47,379 nt of DNA from the IMG/VR virus record IMGVR_UViG_2721755497_000004; one strand, written 5' to 3'. This DNA is from a virus (lineage: Duplodnaviria > Heunggongvirae > Uroviricota > Caudoviricetes). The first letter of the stretch is position 1. Every line of letters begins with the position of its first letter. Position numbers and translations under genes: made by a program. The notes under the pieces were generated by a model. It was not told where the DNA came from. It made no database searches and saw only the letters and a program-made list of their open reading frames with translations. Below, piece after piece: positions 2,689 to 36,483 of the stretch.

Positions 2689-5600
2689 TCACGAAATACT
2701 GATACCCGCCGTGGATTTTTTCATGACCACAACCAGTAAATCACTGATGTATGTTGTCGGCGTCCAGTGGTTCACCCCGTTCGACCACACATTAAACGTC
2801 AGGGTCACATGACCCCGTCCTGCCGGCATATCAATGACGGACGAAAACACCCGGGTGACATCCGTTGCCGGCTCATGAAAAATTACCCTTCCGTTCATCT
2901 GCACCTGTAACTGACACGTGGAATACCATGTTGAAGTGTGATCTTTGCTGGACTGGTGCTCATGTCTCGCCCCCCGGAACAGTACCGGTGGAATGATGAT
3001 CTGCCTGTCGAAGCCCTGGTCATCATAAACGGTGACCGTTATAGTGCCACTGGCATAACTGTTATTCCGTGGGAAAGCTTTCCCCACTGTTTTGACCAGG
3101 TCACCTTCAATCTGGTTTGCAGACAGTTTTCCCAGAATCCGGCAGTTCTGGTTAATGGTCACATTATTGAGCGTGCCAGAGTTCGCATTAATATTTCCGC
3201 TGATATCCGCATTACGGGCCGTCAGCCTGCCTTCCGGCGTCAGGGAGAACACAGGGGGATTGCCGGACGAGGTGATGCTCACCGCAAACAACCGCTTCAG
3301 GAATACGTCGTTCATGAACAACTGATTCCCCTGCGCCACAAACAGCGGCGTGGTGTTGCCGTTCTCCGGGTTAATCATCGCGATACGGTCAGCCTGCAGC
3401 AGAATATTGCTCAGGGTCTGGCCATCAACATCCTCAATCCCCGCACCAATACCAGCAACATACGGAATACCGTTTTTCGTTTTCTGCACCTTCAGCATGT
3501 ACAGTGCGCTCAGGCTGTCATCCGTCTCCTTCTGCACACGCTGTATCTGCTGTATGGTGACACTCTGGTCTTCCAGGATTTTATTGACCGTCTGTGTGAT
3601 TTCATTGCGGGTTTCTGTGATGGTGGTCTTCATCTCCGCCATCTCATCATCAAGCTGACTGTTATCAATCAGCTCCCACATCCCCTGTGCCAGATGTGTC
3701 TTCCCGATTTCTCCTTTGAAAAAGTCCAGATAACCTTCCGCATCATTGCTCGCCCGTCCGGTTGCTTCAACAAAAACGGATTTACCCACCAGGTTGACGC
3801 TGCGCACATAAAACCAGAAATCTGTCCCTGGCTTAATGTGCGAGCCGGAGACGCTCCACTGGCTGCCGGTCCCCAGATAACGGGCGGACGTTTCCACCTG
3901 TGCAGTGTTCGTGATGCGTTTTTCTGAGAACCAGAATTCAAACTGTACCGTCGGATCATACAACGCAAGACGCGGCACTGCTGTTATCTGGAAATAGCCG
4001 GGGGTCAGTTCAATGGTGGCAGGTGCTGCCGGTGCGTTAATCCGGAACGTGGTGATGGCGGCTTCACCCTGCTGCCCATAGCTGTTTATCGCCCTGACCA
4101 TCAGGGTGTACTCCCCCTGTGGCAAACCGCTGAAACGGTGCACCGTATCGGCAGTGATGGCGCTGGTCACCAGACGGCTGTTTTCACCGGTTCCGCTGGT
4201 CAGGCGCAGACTGAAGCGCACGCCCTTCACCACCCGCGGCGTGTCCCATTTCGCCACCGCCAGATACTGACCGTCAGACGCGCTTACCTCCACCGTGAGA
4301 TGCTGTACTGCCGGAGGTGTGACACTGTTCAGCGAACCGGACAACGGCTCAAAGGTGGCACCATTATCCACGATGGCCTCCTTCTCCGGCACATGCTGCA
4401 CCGCCGTGATGGCGAAGGTACCGTCCGCATTTTCGCGGATCGCCACACACCGGAACAGACGGCGGCGCAGTCCCGGCAATGCCAGCCCCCAGATACTGTG
4501 TTCCACCACCCCGTCAGGCAGTGTACTGATCTGTATCCTGTCAGGTGATGGCTGCCCGGTAACATCCACACTCACCGGCTTACCGCTGCCGTTTATCAGA
4601 TTCACCGTGGATGTGCCCTTTTCCGGGAGAGTGACTTCACGGTCAAGCGTCAGGGTCCGGCTGGCGTTGTCGACGGACAGGATCCGCCCGCCGATCACGG
4701 TACCGGCATACGCATTATCACTGATTTCAATGATATCGCCCGGCGTGTGACGCAGTCCCTCCGCCCCCACACTGAAATCCACTGTCTGTGTTTCCAGCAG
4801 TTCGGTCTTTATCACCCACAGGCCTGCCCGGTGAGCCTGACCACGGCTGGTACAGCCGAACGCATCCATCTTCAGAAGATTGCGTCCGTAGCGCAGTATG
4901 GCATCCGGATCCTCCACCAGTTCAGTCGATGTCTGCCAGCCATTCTGCGGATCGGTGTAATTCACCTCAACTGCCGTGTGTCTGTCCTTGAGGGCACTGA
5001 AGCTGTAATGAAAACTTACCCCATCCTCCCCCGTCACCACATTACCGGCGGTATAAGTCCAGACAACATCCGATGGTCTGTCCTGAACAAACGTCAGCGT
5101 CTGTCCGTTCCATACCGGCATACAGCGCATTGCAGAGCAGAAATCCCCCAGCACGTCCCACGCCTTACGCTGTTGTGACAGGTACGCATTAAAGGTCATA
5201 CGGGGTTCTGTACCACCAAAGCCATCCGGAACCGGCTGGTCACAGTACTGTCCGAGGGCATAGAGCGCCCACTTGTCCACATCCGCGGCCCCGAGGCGCT
5301 TTCCCATACCATAACGTGGATGCGTCAGCATATCCCACAGACACCAGGCCGGGTTGTTGCTGTATGCCGGTTTCAGAGTCCCGTCCCAGATACCGCTGTA
5401 TGTACGTTTTTCCGGGTCATAGTTTGACGGCACCTGGATGATGCGCCCGCGGATATGGTAGTTCACCGCCATCTGCTGCCCACCGAACTGCTCCGCATCC
5501 ACCTGCAGCCCCACTATGGCTGTGTTCGGGTAGCTCTGTTTCACATCGATGATTTCGGTGTATGACGACCAGAGCGTTCTGTTCTGCAGCTGGTCCGTGG

Positions 5601-27707: not shown

Positions 27708-29642
27708 TTACGCGTTATTCACTTCCACCACAATGCTGTCAATCAGCACCGGGTATGTTGCACCATTAGTGATATCGGTCACACGCAACTTGTCTGCCGT
27801 AAAAATTCCGACAGTGGACTGCGACAGCATGAACGGCGTCCCGTCCTGACCATCAATGACCGGCGTCACCTCAATACTGTTGTTACCGGCGAAACGGAAG
27901 CCCAACGTATGCCACTCGTTGTCAAATGCACCGAATGACCCCAGTTTCATGTTTTGCGCCGTATCGCCCTTGTGGTACATCACGTTAAGGTCTGTCGCAT
28001 CGCTCTGAACGTAAAAAGATGCCAGCAGGTTATGACCAGCATTACCTTCCAGGGTAACCCCTTGTGGCAGGGCAGAAACCGGCCAGTACAGCGCCAGTGC
28101 GTACTGATTAGCCGTAAGCGCGCCATCAAGTTTAAAACGACAATTGACAAGGCCGCCTTTGCCCAGCAGGTCGGCACCATTACCGGCATCATGTTCCAGG
28201 TACCAGGAGGATTTTCCCGTCGCTTTGGTAAGCTTCATCGCCTTACCTCCACTGGCTCCGGCATCATCCACAACAGCGGCACTACCTCCGCCAGCCCCCC
28301 AGCCCTGTGGAGTCAGTTGTCCTTCCGAATCGCTGGCCCTGTATGCAAACAGTGTTGTCATCCCGGTAGTTTCACCCGGTGATGTTGATGGAGTGTCAGG
28401 TGATGGCTTCTCATCCGGTGGTGTCACGGCCTGCCCGCCCAGCAGTTCAGCCGTGCGCCCTGCATGGAGCAGAATAGAGGAGGCCAGACGGTCAGAAATG
28501 ATGCCCCTGCGTGCCCATGAACTGAAATGGCTGTCACGCTGTGTCGAGACAAAACTGCCCTGGGTACGGGATGCCGCACCGTAATACCCGACAGCCACAA
28601 TATCCGGATCTTCCGTCGGAGCATTCGTTGGCGTGTTCTGTCCATTCTCATCCGTCAGGAACGGTACAAAGAAAATATTCTGAGTTTCCTTGCCTTTGTA
28701 GCCACCGTATACCGCCTCATATTTATCGGTGCCAGCGTTTTTCCAGTAATACGTGGTATCACCACAAATCCACGGTACCGTGCCAGCATTTCCACTCACG
28801 CACTGCGCAGCAAGCGGAGACAGGTCGGCTCTGAACTGCTGAACCATGGCAGTGAATAAACCATTATGCTGCTGACTTCCCGATGCAAGGTCTGCCTCTC
28901 CCTGCATCCAGACCACAGCCAGAAGTTTGTTTTTCGGGTTCTTCGCCAGCGCGACTTTGGTGCGGCTTACCAGGTCCTGATACAGAGGTTTACCGACTCC
29001 CCAGCGTGAAGAATCAGCGGAAGCACCGCTGGCCTCACTGAATGAACCGTCCGGCCCGGTGGTGAATGCTGACCCGCCACGGCAACAGGGCACCAGAAGT
29101 ATCCCGGCATTCTGCGGGATATAAGGCAGCAGTTTTTTGGCAATATGCAGCCCCTGACTCACACAACCATACTGCCCCTTGTTCAGGTCAGCTTTTGGGT
29201 GGTTTATCCCGCTCATGTCCTGCACATCATGCAGGCAGTGGTCTGCCGGAATGATGTCATTGTATTTACACGGCGTACCACCTGGCGTGACCGTGCTGCG
29301 GCGTGCCAGTTGCTTAATCCGTGGGTCCGGGCGGTCAAATGAATCCGGTAACGGAAGCCCTTCACCATAGGCCATGCCATTTGACTGCCCCGCCAGAACA
29401 ACAACAAAGTAATATTCTGGCTCACTGACTGTGCTCATTACCGTACCGCTGTCACCCGACGGCTTCACCACAACAGGCGTGGTGACATCACCCTCCGCTG
29501 CAATCGCCTGCATCAGGGTATAAGGCGTAATAGCAACCGGACTGCCAAACGGCTGCCAGCCTTCCTTCAGTTTTTGTGACAGTCGCTCCGCAAGCTCTGA
29601 CGGTGAAGCCGCCCTGACCACACCATAATGCTTAAATGTCAT
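27708..29642 (-). CDS. NanS-p-like sialate O-acetylesterase (SGNH/DUF303 hydrolase with C-terminal domain)
   Basis: ~645 aa from the MTFKHYGVV Met (RBS GGGAGGAG); GQSN motif; the position upstream of the lysis genes matches where I recall prophage nanS-p genes sitting. Confidence 0.65.
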   Translation of the reverse strand: MTFKHYGVVRAASPSELAERLSQKLKEGWQPFGSPVAITPYTLMQAIAAEGDVTTPVVVKPSGDSGTVMSTVSEPEYYFVVVLAGQSNGMAYGEGLPLPDSFDRPDPRIKQLARRSTVTPGGTPCKYNDIIPADHCLHDVQDMSGINHPKADLNKGQYGCVSQGLHIAKKLLPYIPQNAGILLVPCCRGGSAFTTGPDGSFSEASGASADSSRWGVGKPLYQDLVSRTKVALAKNPKNKLLAVVWMQGEADLASGSQQHNGLFTAMVQQFRADLSPLAAQCVSGNAGTVPWICGDTTYYWKNAGTDKYEAVYGGYKGKETQNIFFVPFLTDENGQNTPTNAPTEDPDIVAVGYYGAASRTQGSFVSTQRDSHFSSWARRGIISDRLASSILLHAGRTAELLGGQAVTPPDEKPSPDTPSTSPGETTGMTTLFAYRASDSEGQLTPQGWGAGGGSAAVVDDAGASGGKAMKLTKATGKSSWYLEHDAGNGADLLGKGGLVNCRFKLDGALTANQYALALYWPVSALPQGVTLEGNAGHNLLASFYVQSDATDLNVMYHKGDTAQNMKLGSFGAFDNEWHTLGFRFAGNNSIEVTPVIDGQDGTPFMLSQSTVGIFTADKLRVTDITNGATYPVLIDSIVVEVNNA

Positions 29643-29812
29643 TGCTCCTCCCGGACGGGATAATATGTTAACTAAGATGAGAGAGCAGGTGACAGCCCCG
29701 GCCGCATGAAAGTTCTGAGAGGGAAGTGCTGCCTGCTGCTCCATTGCACAGATTAATTACTGTCTGGTAGTATTCAGTGGCTGATTAGAATACTTCACAT
29801 TTTGTTATTTTG

Positions 29813-29847
29813 TGCAGCCCGTTACCATTCGTAGCGGGCTTTTTTTG
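29813..29847 (+). terminator. plus-strand hairpin plus T7 run
   Basis: AGCCCG...CGGGCT stem followed by TTTTTTT. Confidence 0.45.
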
Positions 29848-29850
29848 TCC

Positions 29851-29876
29851 ATAAAAAAGCCCCTCCGGAGAGGGGC
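29851..29876 (-). terminator. minus-strand intrinsic terminator (GCCCCTC-CGGA-GAGGGGC plus U6)
   Basis: Perfect 7-bp GC stem preceded on the plus strand by AAAAAA; lies downstream (minus sense) of repeat element A. Confidence 0.55.
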
Positions 29877-29907
29877 ATACTAGCTATATATCCATTTATC
29901 ATTGGCT

Positions 29908-30037
29908 GCGTGGTGCCGGGTGCCTCCCGGTGAGCTCAGCCTGGTGTCACTGAGCCCGCACATTCTCGATCCAAGTTATCGTCGGAGATAATACCTGATA
30001 CACCAGACGCCCCTCCGCACAGGGGGATTCACCACGC
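29908..30037 (-). repeat. structured repeat element A (closing helix GCGTGGTG/CACCACGC)
   Basis: 5' arm plus CCGGG-TGCCT-CCCGG hairpin ... variable core ... CCCCT-CCGCAC-AGGGG hairpin plus GATT plus 3' arm; strand assigned from the flanking terminators. Confidence 0.7.
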
Positions 30038-30265
30038 GCAGAGAAGGATACTGAACACTATTTTCTCCAGGCAATATGCAATAACATGAAGTGTGAGATG
30101 ACTTACAATTATAAAAAACAGCCTACAGAATACTCCTAAATAAAGCCATATCAAAATGAGTAACACAAAAAGGAACCAGGCAAAAATTTACGAGCAGGTA
30201 TTATCCAGCAACAGTTCAGACGCCATAACTTATTGCCGATAGCTACCATCAATAATTTCTTTCAT

Positions 30266-30289
30266 AAAAAAGCCCCTCTGAAGAGGGGC
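30266..30289 (-). terminator. minus-strand intrinsic terminator (GCCCCTC-TGAA-GAGGGGC plus U6)
   Basis: Near-identical copy of the element A terminator, downstream (minus sense) of element B. Confidence 0.55.
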
Positions 30290-30316
30290 TGACATACGCA
30301 TTTGCTTTCATCATCA

Positions 30317-30439
30317 ATATGGCGCCGGGTGCCTCCCGGTGCTCCATAACTGATTAATATGGAACGCGGTTTCATTCAGTTGCATTCATGAATAACACTC
30401 TAATCAGTCCGCCCCGCCGCTTAGGGGGATTCGCCATAT
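30317..30439 (-). repeat. structured repeat element B (closing helix ATATGGCG/CGCCATAT, compensatory change)
   Basis: Same architecture as A; terminal helix sequence differs from A but remains perfectly complementary. Confidence 0.7.
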
Positions 30440-30574
30440 AAATTGAAAGTACTGAACACATCTGTCACAAACAATATGCAATTGTATGAATTGTGAGATT
30501 ATTATCAATAACACAAAATTACAGCTCTAGTACATAAACAGCAGATTAAACAAGAACAACAAAAGTATTGAATT

Positions 30575-30700
30575 GCACGGTGCCGGGTGCCTCCCGGTGA
30601 ATTCTGCAATGACCAGACAGAATCCGCAACTTGCTACTAACGCTAATGCGACCAAGCCTAACAGTCATTATGCCCCTCCGCACAGGGGGATTCACCATGC
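30575..30700 (-). repeat. structured repeat element C (closing helix GCACGGTG/CACCATGC, one mismatch)
   Basis: Same conserved hairpins GGTGCCGGGTGCCTCCCGGTGA and CCCCTCCGCACAGGGGGATTCACCA; different variable core. Confidence 0.7.
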
Positions 30701-30829
30701 GCTAAAAAAATACAAAACGTCACGTCACTCTGACAATACGAAGCACCATAAAATGTGAGTTATTTATCAATTCTTAATTCTGGTTACAGGAATATTCCGA
30801 ATCAAATCTTTAAAAAAAGAAATTCAAAT

Positions 30830-30932
30830 GCATGGTGCCGGGTGCCTCCCGGTGAACAGACCGTCCGTGATACCAGTCGGCAACACAGGAAATTAATGGT
30901 ATCACCCCACCGCACAGGGGGATTCACCATGC
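30830..30932 (-). repeat. structured repeat element D (closing helix GCATGGTG/CACCATGC)
   Basis: Same conserved hairpins; shorter variable core containing its own 9-bp hairpin GTGATACCA/TGGTATCAC. Confidence 0.7.
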
Positions 30933-31121
30933 AGGCGTTTTCTTAGCAAACTAACTGCGCGCCCGGCAACTCCCAACCACATAAAACGTGGAGTTTGTAG
31001 CATTTATGCACATAACTCACAGGGGTTATCTTAAAAAAAGCTGACCATGCTTCCCCGGCAACGCAATAACTTTATTCCCTGAAGTGGCATCCCCCGTATT
31101 GTCGGCAGGCTCAAAAAGGAG

Positions 31122-31143
31122 CCAGTCATCTGAGGATGACTGG
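31122..31143 (-). terminator. hairpin CCAGTCATC-TGAG-GATGACTGG with nearby U-run on minus strand
   Basis: 9-bp perfect stem; the minus strand continues CTCCTTTTTGA. Confidence 0.35.
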
Positions 31144-31323
31144 AAAAAGGAAAGATAAAAAATTATTCATCATACAACCTTCGTTGCAGGGGAGAATCCT
31201 GCGGTGCAGCAACATACAAAAACATAAGCCAACTAACAATATGCAGGCATAGCATTTTCGGATTTTGTTATATGGCACGGTAACTGAATGCTTACCTGAT
31301 ATACAGTCCGGTATAAAGTTGCA

Positions 31324-31344
31324 AAAAACCGCCAGTTAAGGCGG
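31324..31344 (-). terminator. minus-strand intrinsic terminator (CCGCC-AGTTAA-GGCGG plus U6)
   Basis: 5-bp GC stem followed on the minus strand by TTTTTTG. Confidence 0.5.
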
Positions 31345-31587
31345 CATTCAAACAGACAACAGGATTTTTTCGTAATTTTAACAACTTCGGGGTGGCGCAT
31401 CGTCAGCCCCTGTCAGGAAGTACCAGAGCTCCCACCAACAATATCCCCCCATTCAGCGTTATCAAACACAGCACAGAAACTATCAATGTTTGCTGTTACA
31501 GTTAGGGAAAAAACGATAAATACGCCACAGGCTCTTTTTGCTGTGAAGTAAAAACTGATCTGAAAGACTGCTCATCATTTATTTTGC

Positions 31588-31665
31588 TGGACCGTCACCG
31601 GGGACTCGAACCCCGCATTTTCAACATAAAAAGGTTGATGCTCTTTCCTGATGAGCTAGTGACGG
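31588..31665 (-). tRNA. tRNA-like gene with 8-nt anticodon loop (possible unusual tRNA or pseudogene)
   Basis: 7-bp acceptor stem CCGTCAC/GTGACGG, encoded CCA, D arm GCTC/GAGC, T arm CGGGG-TTCGAGT-CCCCG, but anticodon arm TCAAC-CTTTTTAT-GTTGA has an 8-nt loop. Confidence 0.45.
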
Positions 31666-31667
31666 CA

Positions 31668-31742
31668 TGGTTGCCTTGCTGGATTTGAACCAGCGACCTG
31701 GCGATTATGAGTCTCTCGCTCTCACCACTGAGCTAAAGGGCC
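31668..31742 (-). tRNA. tRNA with CAU anticodon (Ile2/Met-like), acceptor and anticodon stems imperfect
   Basis: GGCCCTTTAGCTCAGTGG...CTCATAA...GCTGGTTCAAATCCAGC...CCA; D and T arms canonical; 3 terminal acceptor pairs and 2 anticodon-stem pairs mismatched; one nt short. Confidence 0.55.
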
Positions 31743-31782
31743 GGGAACAGAATAATAATGGTGCGTAATTAATTCTGCAATC

Positions 31783-33414: not shown

Positions 33415-34236
33415 CTATCGCGTTACCCTCTTCAACTGCCACTCTGCCCATGCCTCTGCAATATCAAACCGGACCACCAGCGTGTCATAGAATTGCTTAA
33501 CTGTTTTTTCCCATGAAGCGCGTGTTATCTGATTTGTCACCTCACATATGGCATCAAATGCCTCCGTTGAAGGTAATCTTTCATAGCCACGCCCACCACA
33601 ACGCTGACAGTTTCTGAAAACCGGCATACCTCGTTTTTCAGACTCTTCACGATGAATGGCAACACCGCGCCCACGGCAATCTTTACAGGCAGTGGAGACC
33701 TCCCCCTTTCCACCACACTCCGGACAGGCAACTTTTACCACCTCCCTGACTTTTTTCCATTCCTCCCAGTAAGACGGATACACGCCTTTTGTACACTTTG
33801 CCCATACTGGTGGCTTACCATCCGGATACTGAATCTTGTTTGTAAAAATCTCGCTTTCAATAAATTTTTTTCCGTGACAGCATGGGCACTGTTTTTTGCT
33901 CGCCGCGCTCCGGGCATAATCCTCAAACGCATACGAAGCCATAATGCGCATCACTACCGGTTTTATTTCTGCCGGAAGTTTTCTTAACGCTGCCATCCGA
34001 TCACACCGACTGAGAGCGTATTCTGCCAGCAGTTCTGTTGCCCGCTCCCTGTCATTCATACTGATGCCCATTTTCCCAAGGAACGCAGAAAACCCCATCT
34101 CAGCCCGATTCTGTGTCATGCCCTGCGCGGCCATCACATCAGTGATACTCAGCGCATCTTTTGACGTTGAGGCCGATGCATCGGTCAGGCAAGGGGATTT
34201 TGGGGAGTAGTATTTCGGTAAATCTTCCAGTTTCAT
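33415..34236 (-). CDS. late antiterminator Q-like protein (QuuQ-type, multiple CxxC zinc-ribbon motifs)
   Basis: 273-aa ORF directly upstream of pR'/tR' and downstream of rusA (ATGA-coupled); four CxxC motifs. Confidence 0.6.
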   Translation of the reverse strand: MKLEDLPKYYSPKSPCLTDASASTSKDALSITDVMAAQGMTQNRAEMGFSAFLGKMGISMNDRERATELLAEYALSRCDRMAALRKLPAEIKPVVMRIMASYAFEDYARSAASKKQCPCCHGKKFIESEIFTNKIQYPDGKPPVWAKCTKGVYPSYWEEWKKVREVVKVACPECGGKGEVSTACKDCRGRGVAIHREESEKRGMPVFRNCQRCGGRGYERLPSTEAFDAICEVTNQITRASWEKTVKQFYDTLVVRFDIAEAWAEWQLKRVTR

Positions 34237-36116: not shown

Positions 36117-36272
36117 TTACTCCTCAGGTTCGTAAGCTGTGAAGACAGCGACCTCCGTCTGGCCGGTTCGGATTCGTACCTCGCAGAGGTCTTTCCTCGT
36201 TACCAGTGCCGTCACTATGACGGTTAAACAGATGACGATCAGGGCGATTAACATCGCCTTTTGCTGCTTCAT
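36117..36272 (-). CDS. hokD: Hok-family type I toxin
   Basis: 51-aa MKQQKAMLIALIVICLTVIVTALVTRKDLCEVRIRTGQTEVAVFTAYEPEE, canonical Hok; nested in the longer mok-like frame starting at 36329. Confidence 0.85.
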   Translation of the reverse strand: MKQQKAMLIALIVICLTVIVTALVTRKDLCEVRIRTGQTEVAVFTAYEPEE

Positions 36273-36329
36273 AGCCTGCTTCTCCTTGCCTTTCGGCACG
36301 TAAGAGGCTAACCTAGATTTGCCGTTCAT
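36117..36329 (-). CDS. mok: Mok-like overlapping reading frame
   Basis: 70-aa frame (MNGKSRLASYVPKGKEKQA…) extending upstream of and in frame with hok. Confidence 0.45.
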   Translation of the reverse strand: MNGKSRLASYVPKGKEKQAMKQQKAMLIALIVICLTVIVTALVTRKDLCEVRIRTGQTEVAVFTAYEPEE

Positions 36330-36483
36330 AGATTGAGCCTCAGATTAATGTTAAGCGTCTTGCAGGACGCGTAATGTTAACTGGGGCTTTTCTCTATCTG
36401 CCTTTGGTGTTCATGCCTGAGACAGATAGCCTCAAGCACCCGCAGCCATTCTACTTAACTCCCGTTACCTCGCCAATATAAAA

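What the first reader, a model, noticed from the sequence alone, without database searches (positions are those of the whole stretch)
29851..30932. Tandem array of four structured repeat elements with covarying closing helices at the stx-equivalent cargo position
Four elements (29908-30037, 30317-30439, 30575-30700, 30830-30932) share one architecture: an 8-bp terminal helix, a conserved hairpin (GGTGCCGGGTGCCTCCCGGTGA), a variable 50-80 nt core that forms its own element-specific hairpins, and a second conserved hairpin (CCCCTCCGCACAGGGGGATTCACCA). The terminal helix differs between copies yet stays complementary (GCGTGGTG/CACCACGC, ATATGGCG/CGCCATAT, GCATGGTG/CACCATGC), the classic signature of selection on secondary structure. 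Elements A and B are each followed on the minus strand by a near-identical intrinsic terminator. No ORF of 60 aa or more covers the locus apart from two short plus-strand ORFs I treat as spurious. It sits between the tRNAs and the nanS-p-like gene, where I recall Stx phages carrying stxAB. A conserved scaffold with variable structured cores suggests a family of phage-encoded small RNAs (regulatory, decoy or guide-like) rather than simple repeats; the conserved hairpin shares a GTGAATCCCC decamer with the ERIC primer sequence as I recall it, so an ERIC-like mobile repeat is the main alternative.
Basis: partly seen in the sequence, partly recalled or inferred. Interest (0 to 1): 0.85.

Follow-up and report, generated by a model that had tools for sequence, protein, structure and literature searches.

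The report
Four tandem STnc100-family prophage sRNA genes
The four structured repeats are real, but they are copies of an already catalogued family of prophage small regulatory RNAs (Rfam STnc100, related to EcOnc27/sRNA103 and PasD) in the slot where such RNAs are known to sit, so only the four-copy array and some structural details are new.

Summary
Four elements lie at exactly the stated coordinates. Each is a full-length minus-strand match to Rfam RF02076 (STnc100) at 77-133 bits against a threshold of 47.

The window is an E. coli lambdoid prophage. Minus-strand order: Q, DNA methylase, two tRNAs, the four elements, a NanS-p-like esterase, holin, lysozyme. Tree et al. 2014 described prophage Hfq-binding sRNAs at this "moron" slot. 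Experimentally studied relatives are EcOnc27/sRNA103 (downstream of stx2B) and PasD1/PasD2.

In 129 diverse homologues the closing helix and two further helices covary strongly. Wobble pairs show the RNA is read from the minus strand. ERIC is rejected.

Copies A and B are complete genes: structured domain, 25-31 nt linker, terminator. C has a promoter-like site but no terminator. D has neither.

The array is rare (17 of 5,426 complete E. coli genomes) and modular. Arrays of 2-5 copies occur in other Enterobacterales.

Not seen in the papers I read:
- a covarying loop-to-strand pairing (candidate pseudoknot) inside the domain;
- a hypervariable insert that is largely unstructured;
- arrays with 12-nt spacers in Pantoea.

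Verdict: new members of a known kind, low interest.

The parts
29847..30067 (-). Copy A: complete STnc100-family sRNA gene. Structured domain 29908-30037, linker 29877-29907, terminator hairpin 29859-29876 followed by a U-tract.
   Evidence: RF02076 at 133 bits, model positions 1-206. Terminator. This core type occurs in only 18 of 5,426 genomes.
30260..30465 (-). Copy B: complete STnc100-family sRNA gene. Structured domain 30317-30439, linker 30291-30316, terminator hairpin 30271-30290 followed by a U-tract.
   Evidence: RF02076 at 99.6 bits. Terminator. This core type occurs in 27 of 5,426 genomes. The tail is 75% identical to the tail of A.
30530..30729 (-). Copy C: STnc100-family domain (30575-30700) with no intrinsic terminator of its own. 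Its transcript would run on into copy B.
   Evidence: RF02076 at 100.5 bits. The terminator part of the model is deleted in the alignment. The tail is unstructured, z +0.5. The domain is 86% identical to the single copy in O157:H7 prophages.
30784..30962 (-). Copy D: STnc100-family domain (30830-30932), the most divergent. It lacks the canonical P4 hairpin and has no detectable promoter or terminator.
   Evidence: RF02076 at 76.6 bits. No promoter-like site and no GC-rich hairpin followed by a U-run next to the domain. Relatives at 80-90% identity occur in 569 genomes.
30000..30006 (-). Segment X of copy A (CUGGUGU). It pairs with X' at 29941-29947 (ACACCAG) in the P4 loop. Equivalent pairs: B 30402-30408 with 30349-30355; C 30664-30669 with 30608-30613; D 30897-30903 with 30869-30875.
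   Evidence: Read directly from the sequence.
30481..30508 (-). Promoter-like site upstream of copy B: TTGATA, 16 nt, TACAAT. A weaker homologous site lies upstream of A: TTGTAA at 30103-30108 and TGTTAT at 30081-30086.
   Evidence: The consensus scan gives 10 of 12 matches. It lies within repeat family D2. It is a prediction only.
30707..30736 (-). Promoter-like site upstream of copy C: TTGTCA, 18 nt, TATTTT. Its -10 element ends 6 nt before the closing helix, which is the position typical of the family.
   Evidence: In 37 of the 48 family members that have a promoter-like site, the -10 element ends 5-10 nt before P1. The mapped 5' end of PasD is at the base of P1.
29789..29847 (+). Short convergent element ending in a strong terminator (hairpin 29816-29840 plus U7). 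It abuts the terminator of copy A and is a candidate partner of the anti-sRNA type.
   Evidence: Terminator scan. Fold z of -5.3. It occupies the same position and orientation as an AgvB-family hit beside STnc100 in O157:H7, but scores only 10.5 bits against AgvB.
31588..31743 (-). Two phage tRNA genes directly upstream of the array, in the late-operon direction.
   Evidence: ARAGORN and Rfam.
27708..29642 (-). NanS-p-like esterase gene (DUF1737 + SASA + DUF6645) directly downstream of the array.
   Evidence: Pfam.
33415..34236 (-). Q antiterminator gene (PF03589). It marks the start of the late region that contains the array.
   Evidence: Pfam.

Best explanation
The locus is a head-to-tail array of four diverged paralogous genes of the STnc100 / EcOnc27 (sRNA103) / PasD family of prophage-encoded, Hfq-associated small RNAs. 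It sits in the 'moron' slot of a lambdoid prophage late operon, between the Q-methylase-tRNA block and the esterase and lysis genes.

A canonical family member has four parts:
- a promoter whose -10 element ends just before the RNA;
- a 100-130 nt structured domain;
- a single-stranded linker of about 25 nt, which is where the published PasD seed lies;
- a GC-rich intrinsic terminator with a U-tail, the usual Hfq-binding module.

The structured domain is a five-helix junction. P1 is the closing helix. P2 and P5 are nearly invariant hairpins. The base of P3 encloses a variable insert. P4 is a covarying hairpin.

Copies A and B have all four parts, so they should give discrete RNAs of about 170-210 nt. 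Copy C has a promoter-like site but no terminator, so it probably reads through into B. Copy D has neither and is either co-transcribed from upstream or decaying.

Inferred mechanism, by homology: in the lysogen the RNAs are made from their own promoters, are bound by Hfq, and act in trans by base-pairing with host or prophage mRNAs through the linker. After induction, Q-modified RNA polymerase reads through their terminators to reach the lysis genes.

What is shown: family membership, fold, strand, synteny and gene anatomy. What is inferred: expression, Hfq binding and targets.
For: Membership:
- There are four full-length RF02076 hits at 77-133 bits against a threshold of 47.

Strand:
- In the inner six pairs of P1 there are 51 G.U pairs against 8 A.C pairs across 243 unique elements.
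- Each window element folds better on the minus strand than on the plus strand.

Fold, measured on 129 core-diverse homologues:
- 89.4% of cells are paired, against 78.2% when shuffled and 42-46% when slid.
- P1, the P3 base and P4 are 95-99% paired, and every pair in them shows changes on both sides.

Gene anatomy:
- 184 of 283 family members have a terminator, at a median of 25 nt after P1.
- Promoter-like -10 elements cluster 5-10 nt before P1.
- A and B have a linker plus a strong terminator.

Context:
- The gene order is Q, methylase, tRNAs, array, esterase, holin, lysozyme.
- O157:H7 and EPEC prophages carry one copy in the same slot.
- In the 154 of 240 fetched loci with recognisable late-region genes, 746 of 746 marker hits are co-oriented with the element and in the expected order.

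Literature:
- Hfq-bound convergent sRNA pairs lie 3' of PR' in at least eight Sakai prophages (PMC4104026 and PMC7873438).
- EcOnc27/sRNA103 overlaps the STnc100 annotation downstream of stx2B (PMC12711010).
- PasD1 and PasD2 are northern-validated and Hfq-dependent. The seed UGUGAG lies in the linker just before the terminator (PMC8550237; sequence).
- PasD and STnc100 are proposed to share an ancestor (bioRxiv 10.64898/2026.05.13.724894).
Against: - There are no expression, Hfq-binding or target data for this strain.
- C and D lack terminators, and D lacks a recognisable promoter, so half the array does not fit the canonical gene.
- The linkers of A and B do not contain the PasD seed. They show no above-chance complementarity to anything in the window, and their targets are unknown.
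- The seed-in-linker model does not explain why the large 5' domain is so conserved: P2 and P5 are nearly invariant across genera.
- The same model does not explain the Pantoea arrays, where domains lie 12-35 nt apart with no room for separate promoters or terminators.
- The perfect co-orientation with the late operon is also what a cis-acting role in the late transcript would predict.
Confidence: 0.75

Rival explanations
1. The structured domains act mainly in cis, as parts of the long Q-dependent late transcript. They could serve as processing or stability determinants for flanking messages such as stx, the esterase and the lysis genes. Their terminators could also insulate the lysis genes from polymerase that has not been modified by Q. 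On this view the discrete small RNAs are by-products.
For: - Wherever late-region genes could be recognised, the elements lie between antiterminator-type genes and the lysis cassette and are always co-oriented with them: 746 of 746 marker hits.
- This includes Pantoea loci downstream of DUF1133 and NinG.
- C and D have no terminator of their own.
- Pantoea arrays have 12-35 nt spacers and internal copies without terminators.
- A copy lies 75 nt downstream of the stx2 operon (PMC12370729).
Against: - Relatives accumulate as discrete, Hfq-dependent RNAs in uninduced cultures and form RIL-seq chimeras with many mRNAs (PMC8550237).
- Family members have promoter-like sites at a fixed distance from P1.
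- Most members have their own terminator (184 of 283).
Confidence: 0.12
2. The conserved 5' domain is an autonomous functional RNA. It would be a compact pseudoknotted scaffold that binds a conserved host or phage factor as a decoy or sponge, or that displays the hypervariable insert as a target-recognition loop. The 3' linker seed would then be secondary or absent in many copies.
For: - P2 and P5 are nearly invariant from Escherichia to Pantoea, Kosakonia and Erwinia.
- The junction has almost no unpaired linker nucleotides.
- A covarying X:X' pairing ties P3 to the P4 loop.
- The insert is hypervariable: 134 core types among 243 unique elements.
- The insert is not significantly structured, with a median z of 0.
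- Arrays of domains without individual tails exist.
Against: - No partner protein is known, and no protein gene other than general late-region genes was seen to be conserved next to the elements.
- The cores of this window have no above-chance complementarity to the rest of the window.
- The published target motif for PasD maps to the linker, not to the domain.
- A hypervariable insert is equally what neutral drift in an unconstrained loop would produce.
Confidence: 0.1
3. The elements are DNA-level repeats: an ERIC/IRU-like intergenic repeat, a MITE, or recombination 'boundary' sequences. They would have no RNA function of their own.
For:
- Conserved modules flank variable DNA, and the composition of the array differs between related prophages, as cassette exchange by recombination would produce.
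Against: - Neither ERIC primer sequence matches the window within 3 mismatches.
- Compensatory changes keep several helices paired.
- Wobble pairs are strand-asymmetric, 51 against 8. A DNA-level element would not show that.
- Orientation is fixed relative to transcription.
- Relatives are detected as RNAs.
Confidence: 0.02

Closest known systems
Rfam RF02076 STnc100 (Gammaproteobacterial sRNA STnc100, prophage-associated)
   Same: All four copies match the whole model above the gathering score. They share the nested fold, the strand and the prophage context.
   Different: - Here four diverged copies stand in tandem.
- Two of them lack the terminator part of the model.
- D lacks the canonical P4 hairpin.
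- The A and B core types are rare, occurring in 18 and 27 of 5,426 genomes.
EcOnc27 = sRNA103 (downstream of stx2B in Sp5/933W) and EcOnc06, the Hfq-bound sRNAs of the convergent 'dyads' in EHEC (Tree et al. 2014; Gruber and Sperandio 2015)
   Same: - They occupy the same slot, between the late promoter or tRNAs and the esterase and lysis genes.
- They belong to the same Rfam family.
- They have a convergent short sRNA partner directly downstream.
   Different: - EHEC prophages carry one copy per slot, whereas this window carries four.
- The prophage in the window has no stx.
- The convergent partner here does not qualify as AgvB or AsxR (10.5 bits).
PasD1/PasD2 (= EcOnc13 homologues) of EPEC E2348/69
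   Same: - The architecture is the same: P1-closed domain, single-stranded linker, terminator.
- The slot is the same, directly upstream of the SASA esterase.
- Copy C shares 80% identity with PasD2 over 49 nt of P4-P5.
   Different: - PasD2 scores 41.4 bits, below the RF02076 threshold of 47.
- Its P2 and P5 differ from those here.
- The published seed UGUGAG is absent from all four copies.
- PasD copies are reported as dispersed, not tandem (bioRxiv 10.64898/2026.05.13.724894).
Anti-sRNAs AgvB/AsxR (RF02702/RF02703)
   Same: The plus-strand element at 29789-29847 has the same position, orientation, size class (about 55 nt) and terminator layout as the AgvB-family gene next to STnc100 in O157:H7.
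   Different: Only the terminator aligns. The CM score is 10.5 bits against a threshold of 56, so it is not a demonstrable member.
ERIC / IRU intergenic repeats
   Same: They share a single decamer (GTGAATCCCC), and both are intergenic and structured.
   Different: There is no match to either ERIC primer region within 3 mismatches. The length, fold, fixed orientation and prophage-only context all differ.

Membership tests
Rfam RF02076 STnc100 | Covariance-model score at or above the curated gathering score (47 bits) over the full model | tested here: met
   The scores are 133, 100.5, 99.6 and 76.6 bits, each over model positions 1-206.
Rfam RF02076 STnc100 | Consensus fold: a closing helix enclosing the conserved hairpins P2 and P5 and the P4 hairpin | tested here: met
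   A, B and C form all of these helices. D forms P1, P2 and P5 but not the canonical P4. Family-wide covariation supports P1, the P3 base and P4.
Rfam RF02076 STnc100 | 3' Rho-independent terminator as part of the RNA | tested here: inconclusive
   The feature is met for A and B. It is not met for C and D: that part of the model is deleted in the alignment and their tails are unstructured.
Rfam RF02076 STnc100 | Expressed as a discrete, Hfq-associated small RNA | not testable with these tools
   The only evidence comes from relatives in the literature.
Prophage 'moron-site' sRNA dyads (Tree et al. 2014) | Location 3' of the Q-dependent late promoter and 5' of the lysis genes in a lambdoid prophage | tested here: met
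   Pfam gives the order Q, methylase, tRNAs, array, esterase, holin, lysozyme. Synteny holds in 154 loci.
Prophage 'moron-site' sRNA dyads (Tree et al. 2014) | A convergent short anti-sRNA (AgvB/AsxR family) facing the STnc100-type gene | tested here: inconclusive
   A convergent element of about 55 nt with a terminator is present at 29789-29847. It scores 10.5 bits against AgvB, whose threshold is 56. AsxR did not appear even at E <= 10.
PasD (EPEC) | Seed UGUGAG in the linker before the terminator; BLAST-level similarity to PasD1/PasD2 | tested here: not met
   None of the four copies contains UGUGAG. Only copies C and D share short segments with PasD2.
ERIC / IRU repeat | Match to the ERIC consensus, represented here by the ERIC1R and ERIC2 primer regions recalled from memory | tested here: not met
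   There are no matches within 3 mismatches on either strand of the window.
Guide-RNA or CRISPR-like array | Variable segments complementary to targets, and an associated effector gene | tested here: not met
   The longest complement of any core or linker to the rest of the window is 10-11 nt, equal to the shuffled expectation. The neighbouring genes are ordinary late-region genes. Targets outside the window were not tested.

The most novel reading that the evidence does not exclude
The 5' domain of STnc100/PasD-family RNAs may be more than a passive leader for a 3' seed. It may be an autonomous, compact five-helix scaffold, locked by a covarying pairing between the strand 3' of the P3 base and the P4 loop. 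That scaffold would display a hypervariable, largely unstructured loop of 18-45 nt.

Tandem arrays of such domains reach five copies, with spacers as short as 12 nt in Pantoea. They would then be batteries of differently 'programmed' recognition loops, or multivalent decoys for a conserved host factor. Temperate phages would carry and shuffle them at the moron site.
Probability: 0.15. Interest if true: 0.6.

Novelty: new member of a known kind. Interest (0 to 1): 0.2.

Why it matters
It matters little as a discovery. The family is curated in Rfam, and its slot in lambdoid prophages and its Hfq association have been published since 2014.

The analysis is still useful in three ways:

- **Annotation gap.** The RefSeq records I inspected list no feature over these RNAs.
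- **Copy number in commensals.** Prophages of mouse- and human-derived isolates carrying no stx at this slot can hold four diverged paralogues where EHEC holds one. Copies are gained and lost as cassettes.
- **Testable structure.** The work gives hypotheses for why the large 5' domain is conserved, which the current seed-in-linker picture does not explain. These are the pseudoknot-like X:X' pairing, the unstructured hypervariable insert, and the arrays of domains without individual tails.

Tried and rejected
- **ERIC/IRU identity.** Both primer regions were searched with up to 3 mismatches and gave no hit. Rejected.
- **Protein-coding reading.** Seven small ORFs over and beside the array gave no Pfam match passing threshold and one weak PHROG hit (E 0.007, 13 residues). 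Rejected.
- **Guide-like or cis-target reading.** Cores and linkers have no above-chance complementarity to the other 46 kb of the window. Unsupported, though targets elsewhere in the host were not tested.
- **AgvB/AsxR membership of the convergent plus-strand element.** It scores 10.5 bits against a threshold of 56, and only the terminator aligns. Not established.
- **Extra degenerate copies between copy D and the tRNAs.** A permissive Rfam scan found none.
- **Phage genome records.** Megablast of the 1.5 kb region found only one 32-nt match. The array was found only in bacterial chromosomes and in one IMG/VR contig (L005).
- **Element-specific hairpins in the variable insert.** Across 107 inserts the mean z is -0.32 and the median is 0. 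In this window the values are -0.1, -0.4 and +0.6. The claim is not supported as a general feature.
- **Resemblances considered but not tested.** I noticed a tRNA-like cloverleaf topology, a boxB-like look to P5 and a CRISPR-repeat-like look to P2. These are visual resemblances only and are not claimed.
Full report
**1. The observation**

The repeat finder independently reports the two conserved modules in four copies each, and the near-identical terminators after the first two elements (families D1, D4 and D5).

The stated closing helices are correct, with one detail. Copy C reads GCACGGTG/CACCATGC on the plus strand, a C.A mismatch there. On the minus strand it is a U.G wobble.

The only ORFs of 60 aa or more over the locus are two plus-strand ones of 61 and 63 aa. 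Neither they nor five other small ORFs nearby have a Pfam match passing threshold. The only PHROG match is one weak hit (E 0.007, 13 residues).

**2. What the elements are**

A scan of the window against Rfam gives four full-length minus-strand matches to RF02076, 'Gammaproteobacterial sRNA STnc100'. The gathering score is 47 bits and E-values run from 1e-14 to 4e-29.

| Copy | Interval (minus strand) | Score (bits) |
|---|---|---|
| A | 30067->29847 | 133 |
| B | 30465->30260 | 99.6 |
| C | 30729->30530 | 100.5 |
| D | 30962->30784 | 76.6 |

The model covers four parts:
- a short leader;
- an 8-bp closing helix around several hairpins;
- a linker;
- a terminator.

In copies C and D the terminator part of the model is deleted.

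**3. Genomic context**

Pfam gives this gene order on the minus strand:
- DUF968, RusA;
- Q antiterminator;
- N6/N4 DNA methylase;
- two tRNAs;
- the array;
- a DUF1737+SASA+DUF6645 (NanS-p-like) esterase;
- DUF826, a P21-type holin and a lysozyme.

The window is 100% identical to the chromosomes of the mouse E. coli isolates M1 and M3.

In O157:H7 the same slot holds a single STnc100 copy: methylase, tRNA-Ile, tRNA-Arg, element, DUF6645 esterase, holin. In EPEC E2348/69 the slot just upstream of the SASA esterase holds PasD2. The RefSeq records I inspected list no feature over any of these RNAs.

I searched the 240 loci fetched by pattern from viral and genome collections with late-region proteins. 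Of these, 154 have recognisable markers. All 746 marker hits are co-oriented with the element. All are also in the expected order, with Q, RusA, NinG and methylase on the 5' side and esterase, holin and lysozyme on the 3' side.

**4. What is already known**

Tree et al. [quoted passage not shown] These lie in the moron insertion site downstream of the Q-antiterminated PR'. They are arranged as convergent pairs, for example EcOnc27 facing the anti-sRNA AsxR 3' of stx2B, and occur in at least eight Sakai prophages (review PMC7873438).

Other published points:
- EcOnc27 (sRNA103 in EDL933) overlaps the Infernal STnc100 annotation downstream of stx2B (PMC12711010).
- A copy lies 75 nt downstream of the stx2 operon and was detected in outer membrane vesicles (PMC12370729).
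- PasD1 and PasD2 of EPEC are northern-validated and Hfq-dependent, and have RIL-seq partners (PMC8550237).
- A 2026 preprint concludes that PasD and STnc100 share an ancestor. It notes their association with Q, esterase and holin/lysozyme genes, and reports Pas copies as dispersed rather than tandem (10.64898/2026.05.13.724894).

I fetched PasD2 (L241 3158-3329). It begins exactly at the base of the closing helix and has the same domain. The published seed UGUGAG lies in a single-stranded linker of about 45 nt just before the terminator. PasD2 scores 41.4 bits on RF02076, just under the threshold.

**5. Is the covariation real?**

A pattern made of the two conserved hairpins retrieved at least 120 viral contigs and at least 120 genome contigs. 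The genome contigs span Escherichia, Salmonella, Klebsiella, Raoultella, Enterobacter, Kosakonia, Pantoea, Erwinia, Rahnella and other genera.

Among 223 unique elements from the exact-pattern extraction:
- 121 have 8 of 8 closing pairs and 62 have 7 of 8.
- There are 118 distinct arm pairs, including wholesale replacements such as TTGCTATG/CATAGCAA and CTACAACG/CGCTGTAG.

On an alignment of 129 core-diverse representatives, RNAalifold predicts 24 pairs, and 16 of them show compensatory changes. Counting the named structure gives the following:
- 89.4% of cells are paired. The shuffled value is 78.2 +/- 0.4, and no shuffle of 500 reached the observed value. With partners slid by 1-3 columns the value is 42-46%.
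- P1 is 95% paired, with double changes at all 7 pairs.
- The P3 base is 96% paired, with double changes at all 3 pairs.
- P4 is 99% paired, with double changes at all 4 pairs.
- P2 and P5 are almost invariant. P2 nevertheless has C-G to A-U and U-A exchanges at one pair.

Two results identify the transcribed strand:
- In the relaxed set of 243 unique elements, the inner six pairs of P1 contain 51 G.U pairs but only 8 A.C pairs. The RNA is therefore the strand co-oriented with the late genes.
- Each window element also folds to a lower energy on the minus strand.

**6.

The 'variable core' is not all variable. The domain is a five-helix junction with almost no unpaired junction nucleotides:
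- P1;
- P2, whose sequence is CCCC-C-U / G-G-N-GGGG;
- a three-pair P3 base (GCN/N'GC) that closes the insert;
- P4;
- P5, a CCGGG stem with an AGGCA loop.

In addition, the 6-9 nt just 3' of the P3 base (segment X) are complementary to the 3' half of the P4 loop (segment X'), and the two change together.

| Copy | X / X' | X coordinates | X' coordinates |
|---|---|---|---|
| A | CUGGUGU / ACACCAG | 30000-30006 | 29941-29947 |
| B | ACUGAUU / AAUCAGU | 30402-30408 | 30349-30355 |
| C | AAUGAC / GUCAUU | 30664-30669 | 30608-30613 |
| D | GAUACCA / UGGUAUC | 30897-30903 | 30869-30875 |

The evidence across the family is as follows.

Register-free tests:
- The best contiguous helix averages 6.68 bp. 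With the partner taken from another element it is 5.52 +/- 0.10.
- With the reversed partner from the same element it is 5.25 (Wilcoxon p = 8e-16).
- Duplex energy is -10.1 against -7.9 +/- 0.2 kcal/mol.
- X' always lies 8-10 nt before P5.

Fixed alignment columns:
- 55.6% of cells are paired, against 40.7 +/- 1.5 when shuffled.
- The value peaks at zero slide.

This is either a pseudoknot or an alternative conformer. The Rfam structure line cannot show a pseudoknot, and I did not find this pairing in the papers I read.

The remaining truly variable insert has a median length of 26 nt and a range of 18-45 nt. It is not significantly structured. Across 107 inserts the mean z is -0.32 and the median is 0. 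In this window the values are -0.1, -0.4 and +0.6.

**7. Gene organisation**

Across 283 elements with distinct flanks:
- 184 have a GC-rich terminator, at a median of 25 nt after P1.
- Where a promoter-like site is found, its -10 element ends 5-10 nt before P1 in 37 of 48 cases. This matches the mapped 5' end of PasD.

In the window:
- **A and B** have linkers of 31 and 26 nt and strong terminators.
- **B** has a 10-of-12 promoter-like site 41 nt upstream of P1 (30508->30481). A has a weaker homologue.
- **C** has a promoter-like site at the position typical of the family (30736->30707) but an unstructured tail. Its transcript should run into B.
- **D** has neither.

The four paralogues share only the two conserved modules (21-31 nt). 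The exception is that the tails of A and B are 75% identical. They are therefore old paralogues, not recent duplicates.

**8. How unusual the array is**

| Feature | Complete E. coli genomes (of 5,426) |
|---|---|
| Whole 1.5 kb array | 17 |
| A-type core | 18 |
| B-type core | 27 |
| C-type core (86% identical in O157:H7) | 529 |
| D-type core | 569 |

Related prophages carry different subsets:
- strain A39: D-B-A;
- strain M19: D, a tolA-like CDS, then C-B;
- O157:H7: a C-like copy only;
- strain S42: a D-like copy only.

Copies therefore behave as separate cassettes.

Arrays as such are not unique. The fetched loci contain 256 singletons or arrays: 225 single copies, 18 doubles, 6 triples, 6 quadruples and 1 quintuple. 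In Pantoea the spacers can be as short as 12-35 nt, and internal copies lack terminators. Those arrays also lie downstream of DUF1133 or NinG genes.

**9. The convergent partner**

Directly after the terminator of copy A, on the plus strand, lies an element of about 55 nt that ends in a strong hairpin plus U7 (29789-29847). In O157:H7 the same position holds an AgvB-family anti-sRNA, which scores 56.6 bits.

The window's element aligns with it only over the terminator. It scores 10.5 bits against AgvB. The layout therefore matches the published 'dyad', but membership of the anti-sRNA family is not shown.

**10. Alternatives**

- **ERIC.** Neither primer region, recalled from memory, matches within three mismatches. 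The fixed orientation, the strand-asymmetric wobble pairs and the compensatory changes also argue against a DNA-level repeat.
- **Guide-like reading.** The cores and linkers have no above-chance complementarity to the rest of the window. No effector-like gene is conserved beside the elements.
- **Cis role in the late transcript.** This remains possible, given the perfect co-orientation and the copies without terminators. It does not explain the discrete, Hfq-dependent RNAs seen for relatives.
- **Autonomous function of the 5' domain.** This is the most novel reading that the evidence does not exclude.

**11. Verdict**

That family is already known, as is its slot in the prophage. The new points are these:
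- two rare paralogue types, A and B;
- a four-copy modular array in an E. coli prophage with no stx at this slot;
- a candidate pseudoknot;
- an unstructured hypervariable insert;
- arrays of domains without individual tails in other genera.

I rate it as new members of a known kind, with low interest.

Noticed in passing
window 29789-29847 (+): A short convergent element ends in a strong terminator (hairpin 29816-29840 plus U7, fold z -5.3) and abuts the terminator of copy A. It has the position and layout of the AgvB/AsxR anti-sRNAs of EHEC dyads. It scores only 10.5 bits against AgvB and occurs in 27 of 5,426 genomes. It may be an undescribed anti-sRNA-type partner.
   Followed up: partly
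window 30072-30118, 30472-30518, 30734-30780 (and an inverted partial copy at 29789-29803): A repeated promoter-like motif lies upstream of copies A, B and C. On the minus strand it contains CTCACA, the complement of the published PasD seed UGUGAG. A similar CCTCACAATTCA lies upstream of the O157:H7 copy (L242, about 3442-3453). Whether this is a coincidence, a promoter element or a pairing site is unknown.
   Followed up: partly
window 31588-31665 (-): ARAGORN reports a tRNA with an unassignable four-base anticodon (tttt) in an 8-nt anticodon loop (CTTTTTAT). Rfam scores it as a tRNA at 47 bits. It is not the tRNA-Arg found at this slot in O157:H7. It could be a pseudo-tRNA or a tRNA with an expanded anticodon loop.
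   Followed up: partly
window 30963-31587 (-): An unannotated 625-nt stretch lies between the tRNAs and copy D and occurs in only 28 of 5,426 genomes. It has two terminator-like hairpins (31345->31328 and 31143->31122) and a promoter-like site (31465->31438). These could delimit a further small RNA of about 105 nt. There is no Rfam hit at E <= 1, and the two small ORFs there have no Pfam or PHROG match.
   Followed up: partly
window 36267-36441 (-): A sok antitoxin RNA (RF01794, 110 bits) indicates a hok/sok-type toxin-antitoxin locus in the prophage early-late region. A sok hit also accompanies the D-like copy in strain S42 (L243 537-711).
   Followed up: no
L145 1121-1988 (-), also L138 and L156 (Pantoea sp. 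App145 plasmid pAPP145_2); L167, L173, L178: Pantoea replicons carry many copies of the domain. One megaplasmid has at least nine, including a five-copy array with spacers of 12-32 nt and internal copies without terminators, downstream of a DUF1133 gene. Neighbouring domains have quite different closing-helix sequences.
   Followed up: partly
L245 3736-4164 (E. coli M19): In a related prophage a CDS annotated as 'cell envelope integrity protein TolA' sits inside the array, between the C-like and D-like copies. Similar tolA-like fragments follow the D-like copy in strain S42 (L243). This is another cargo gene using the same slot.
   Followed up: no
L241 3198-3439 (E2348/69): RefSeq annotates a frameshifted 'hypothetical protein' pseudogene antisense to PasD2. 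This is probably a spurious protein call over the sRNA gene.
   Followed up: no
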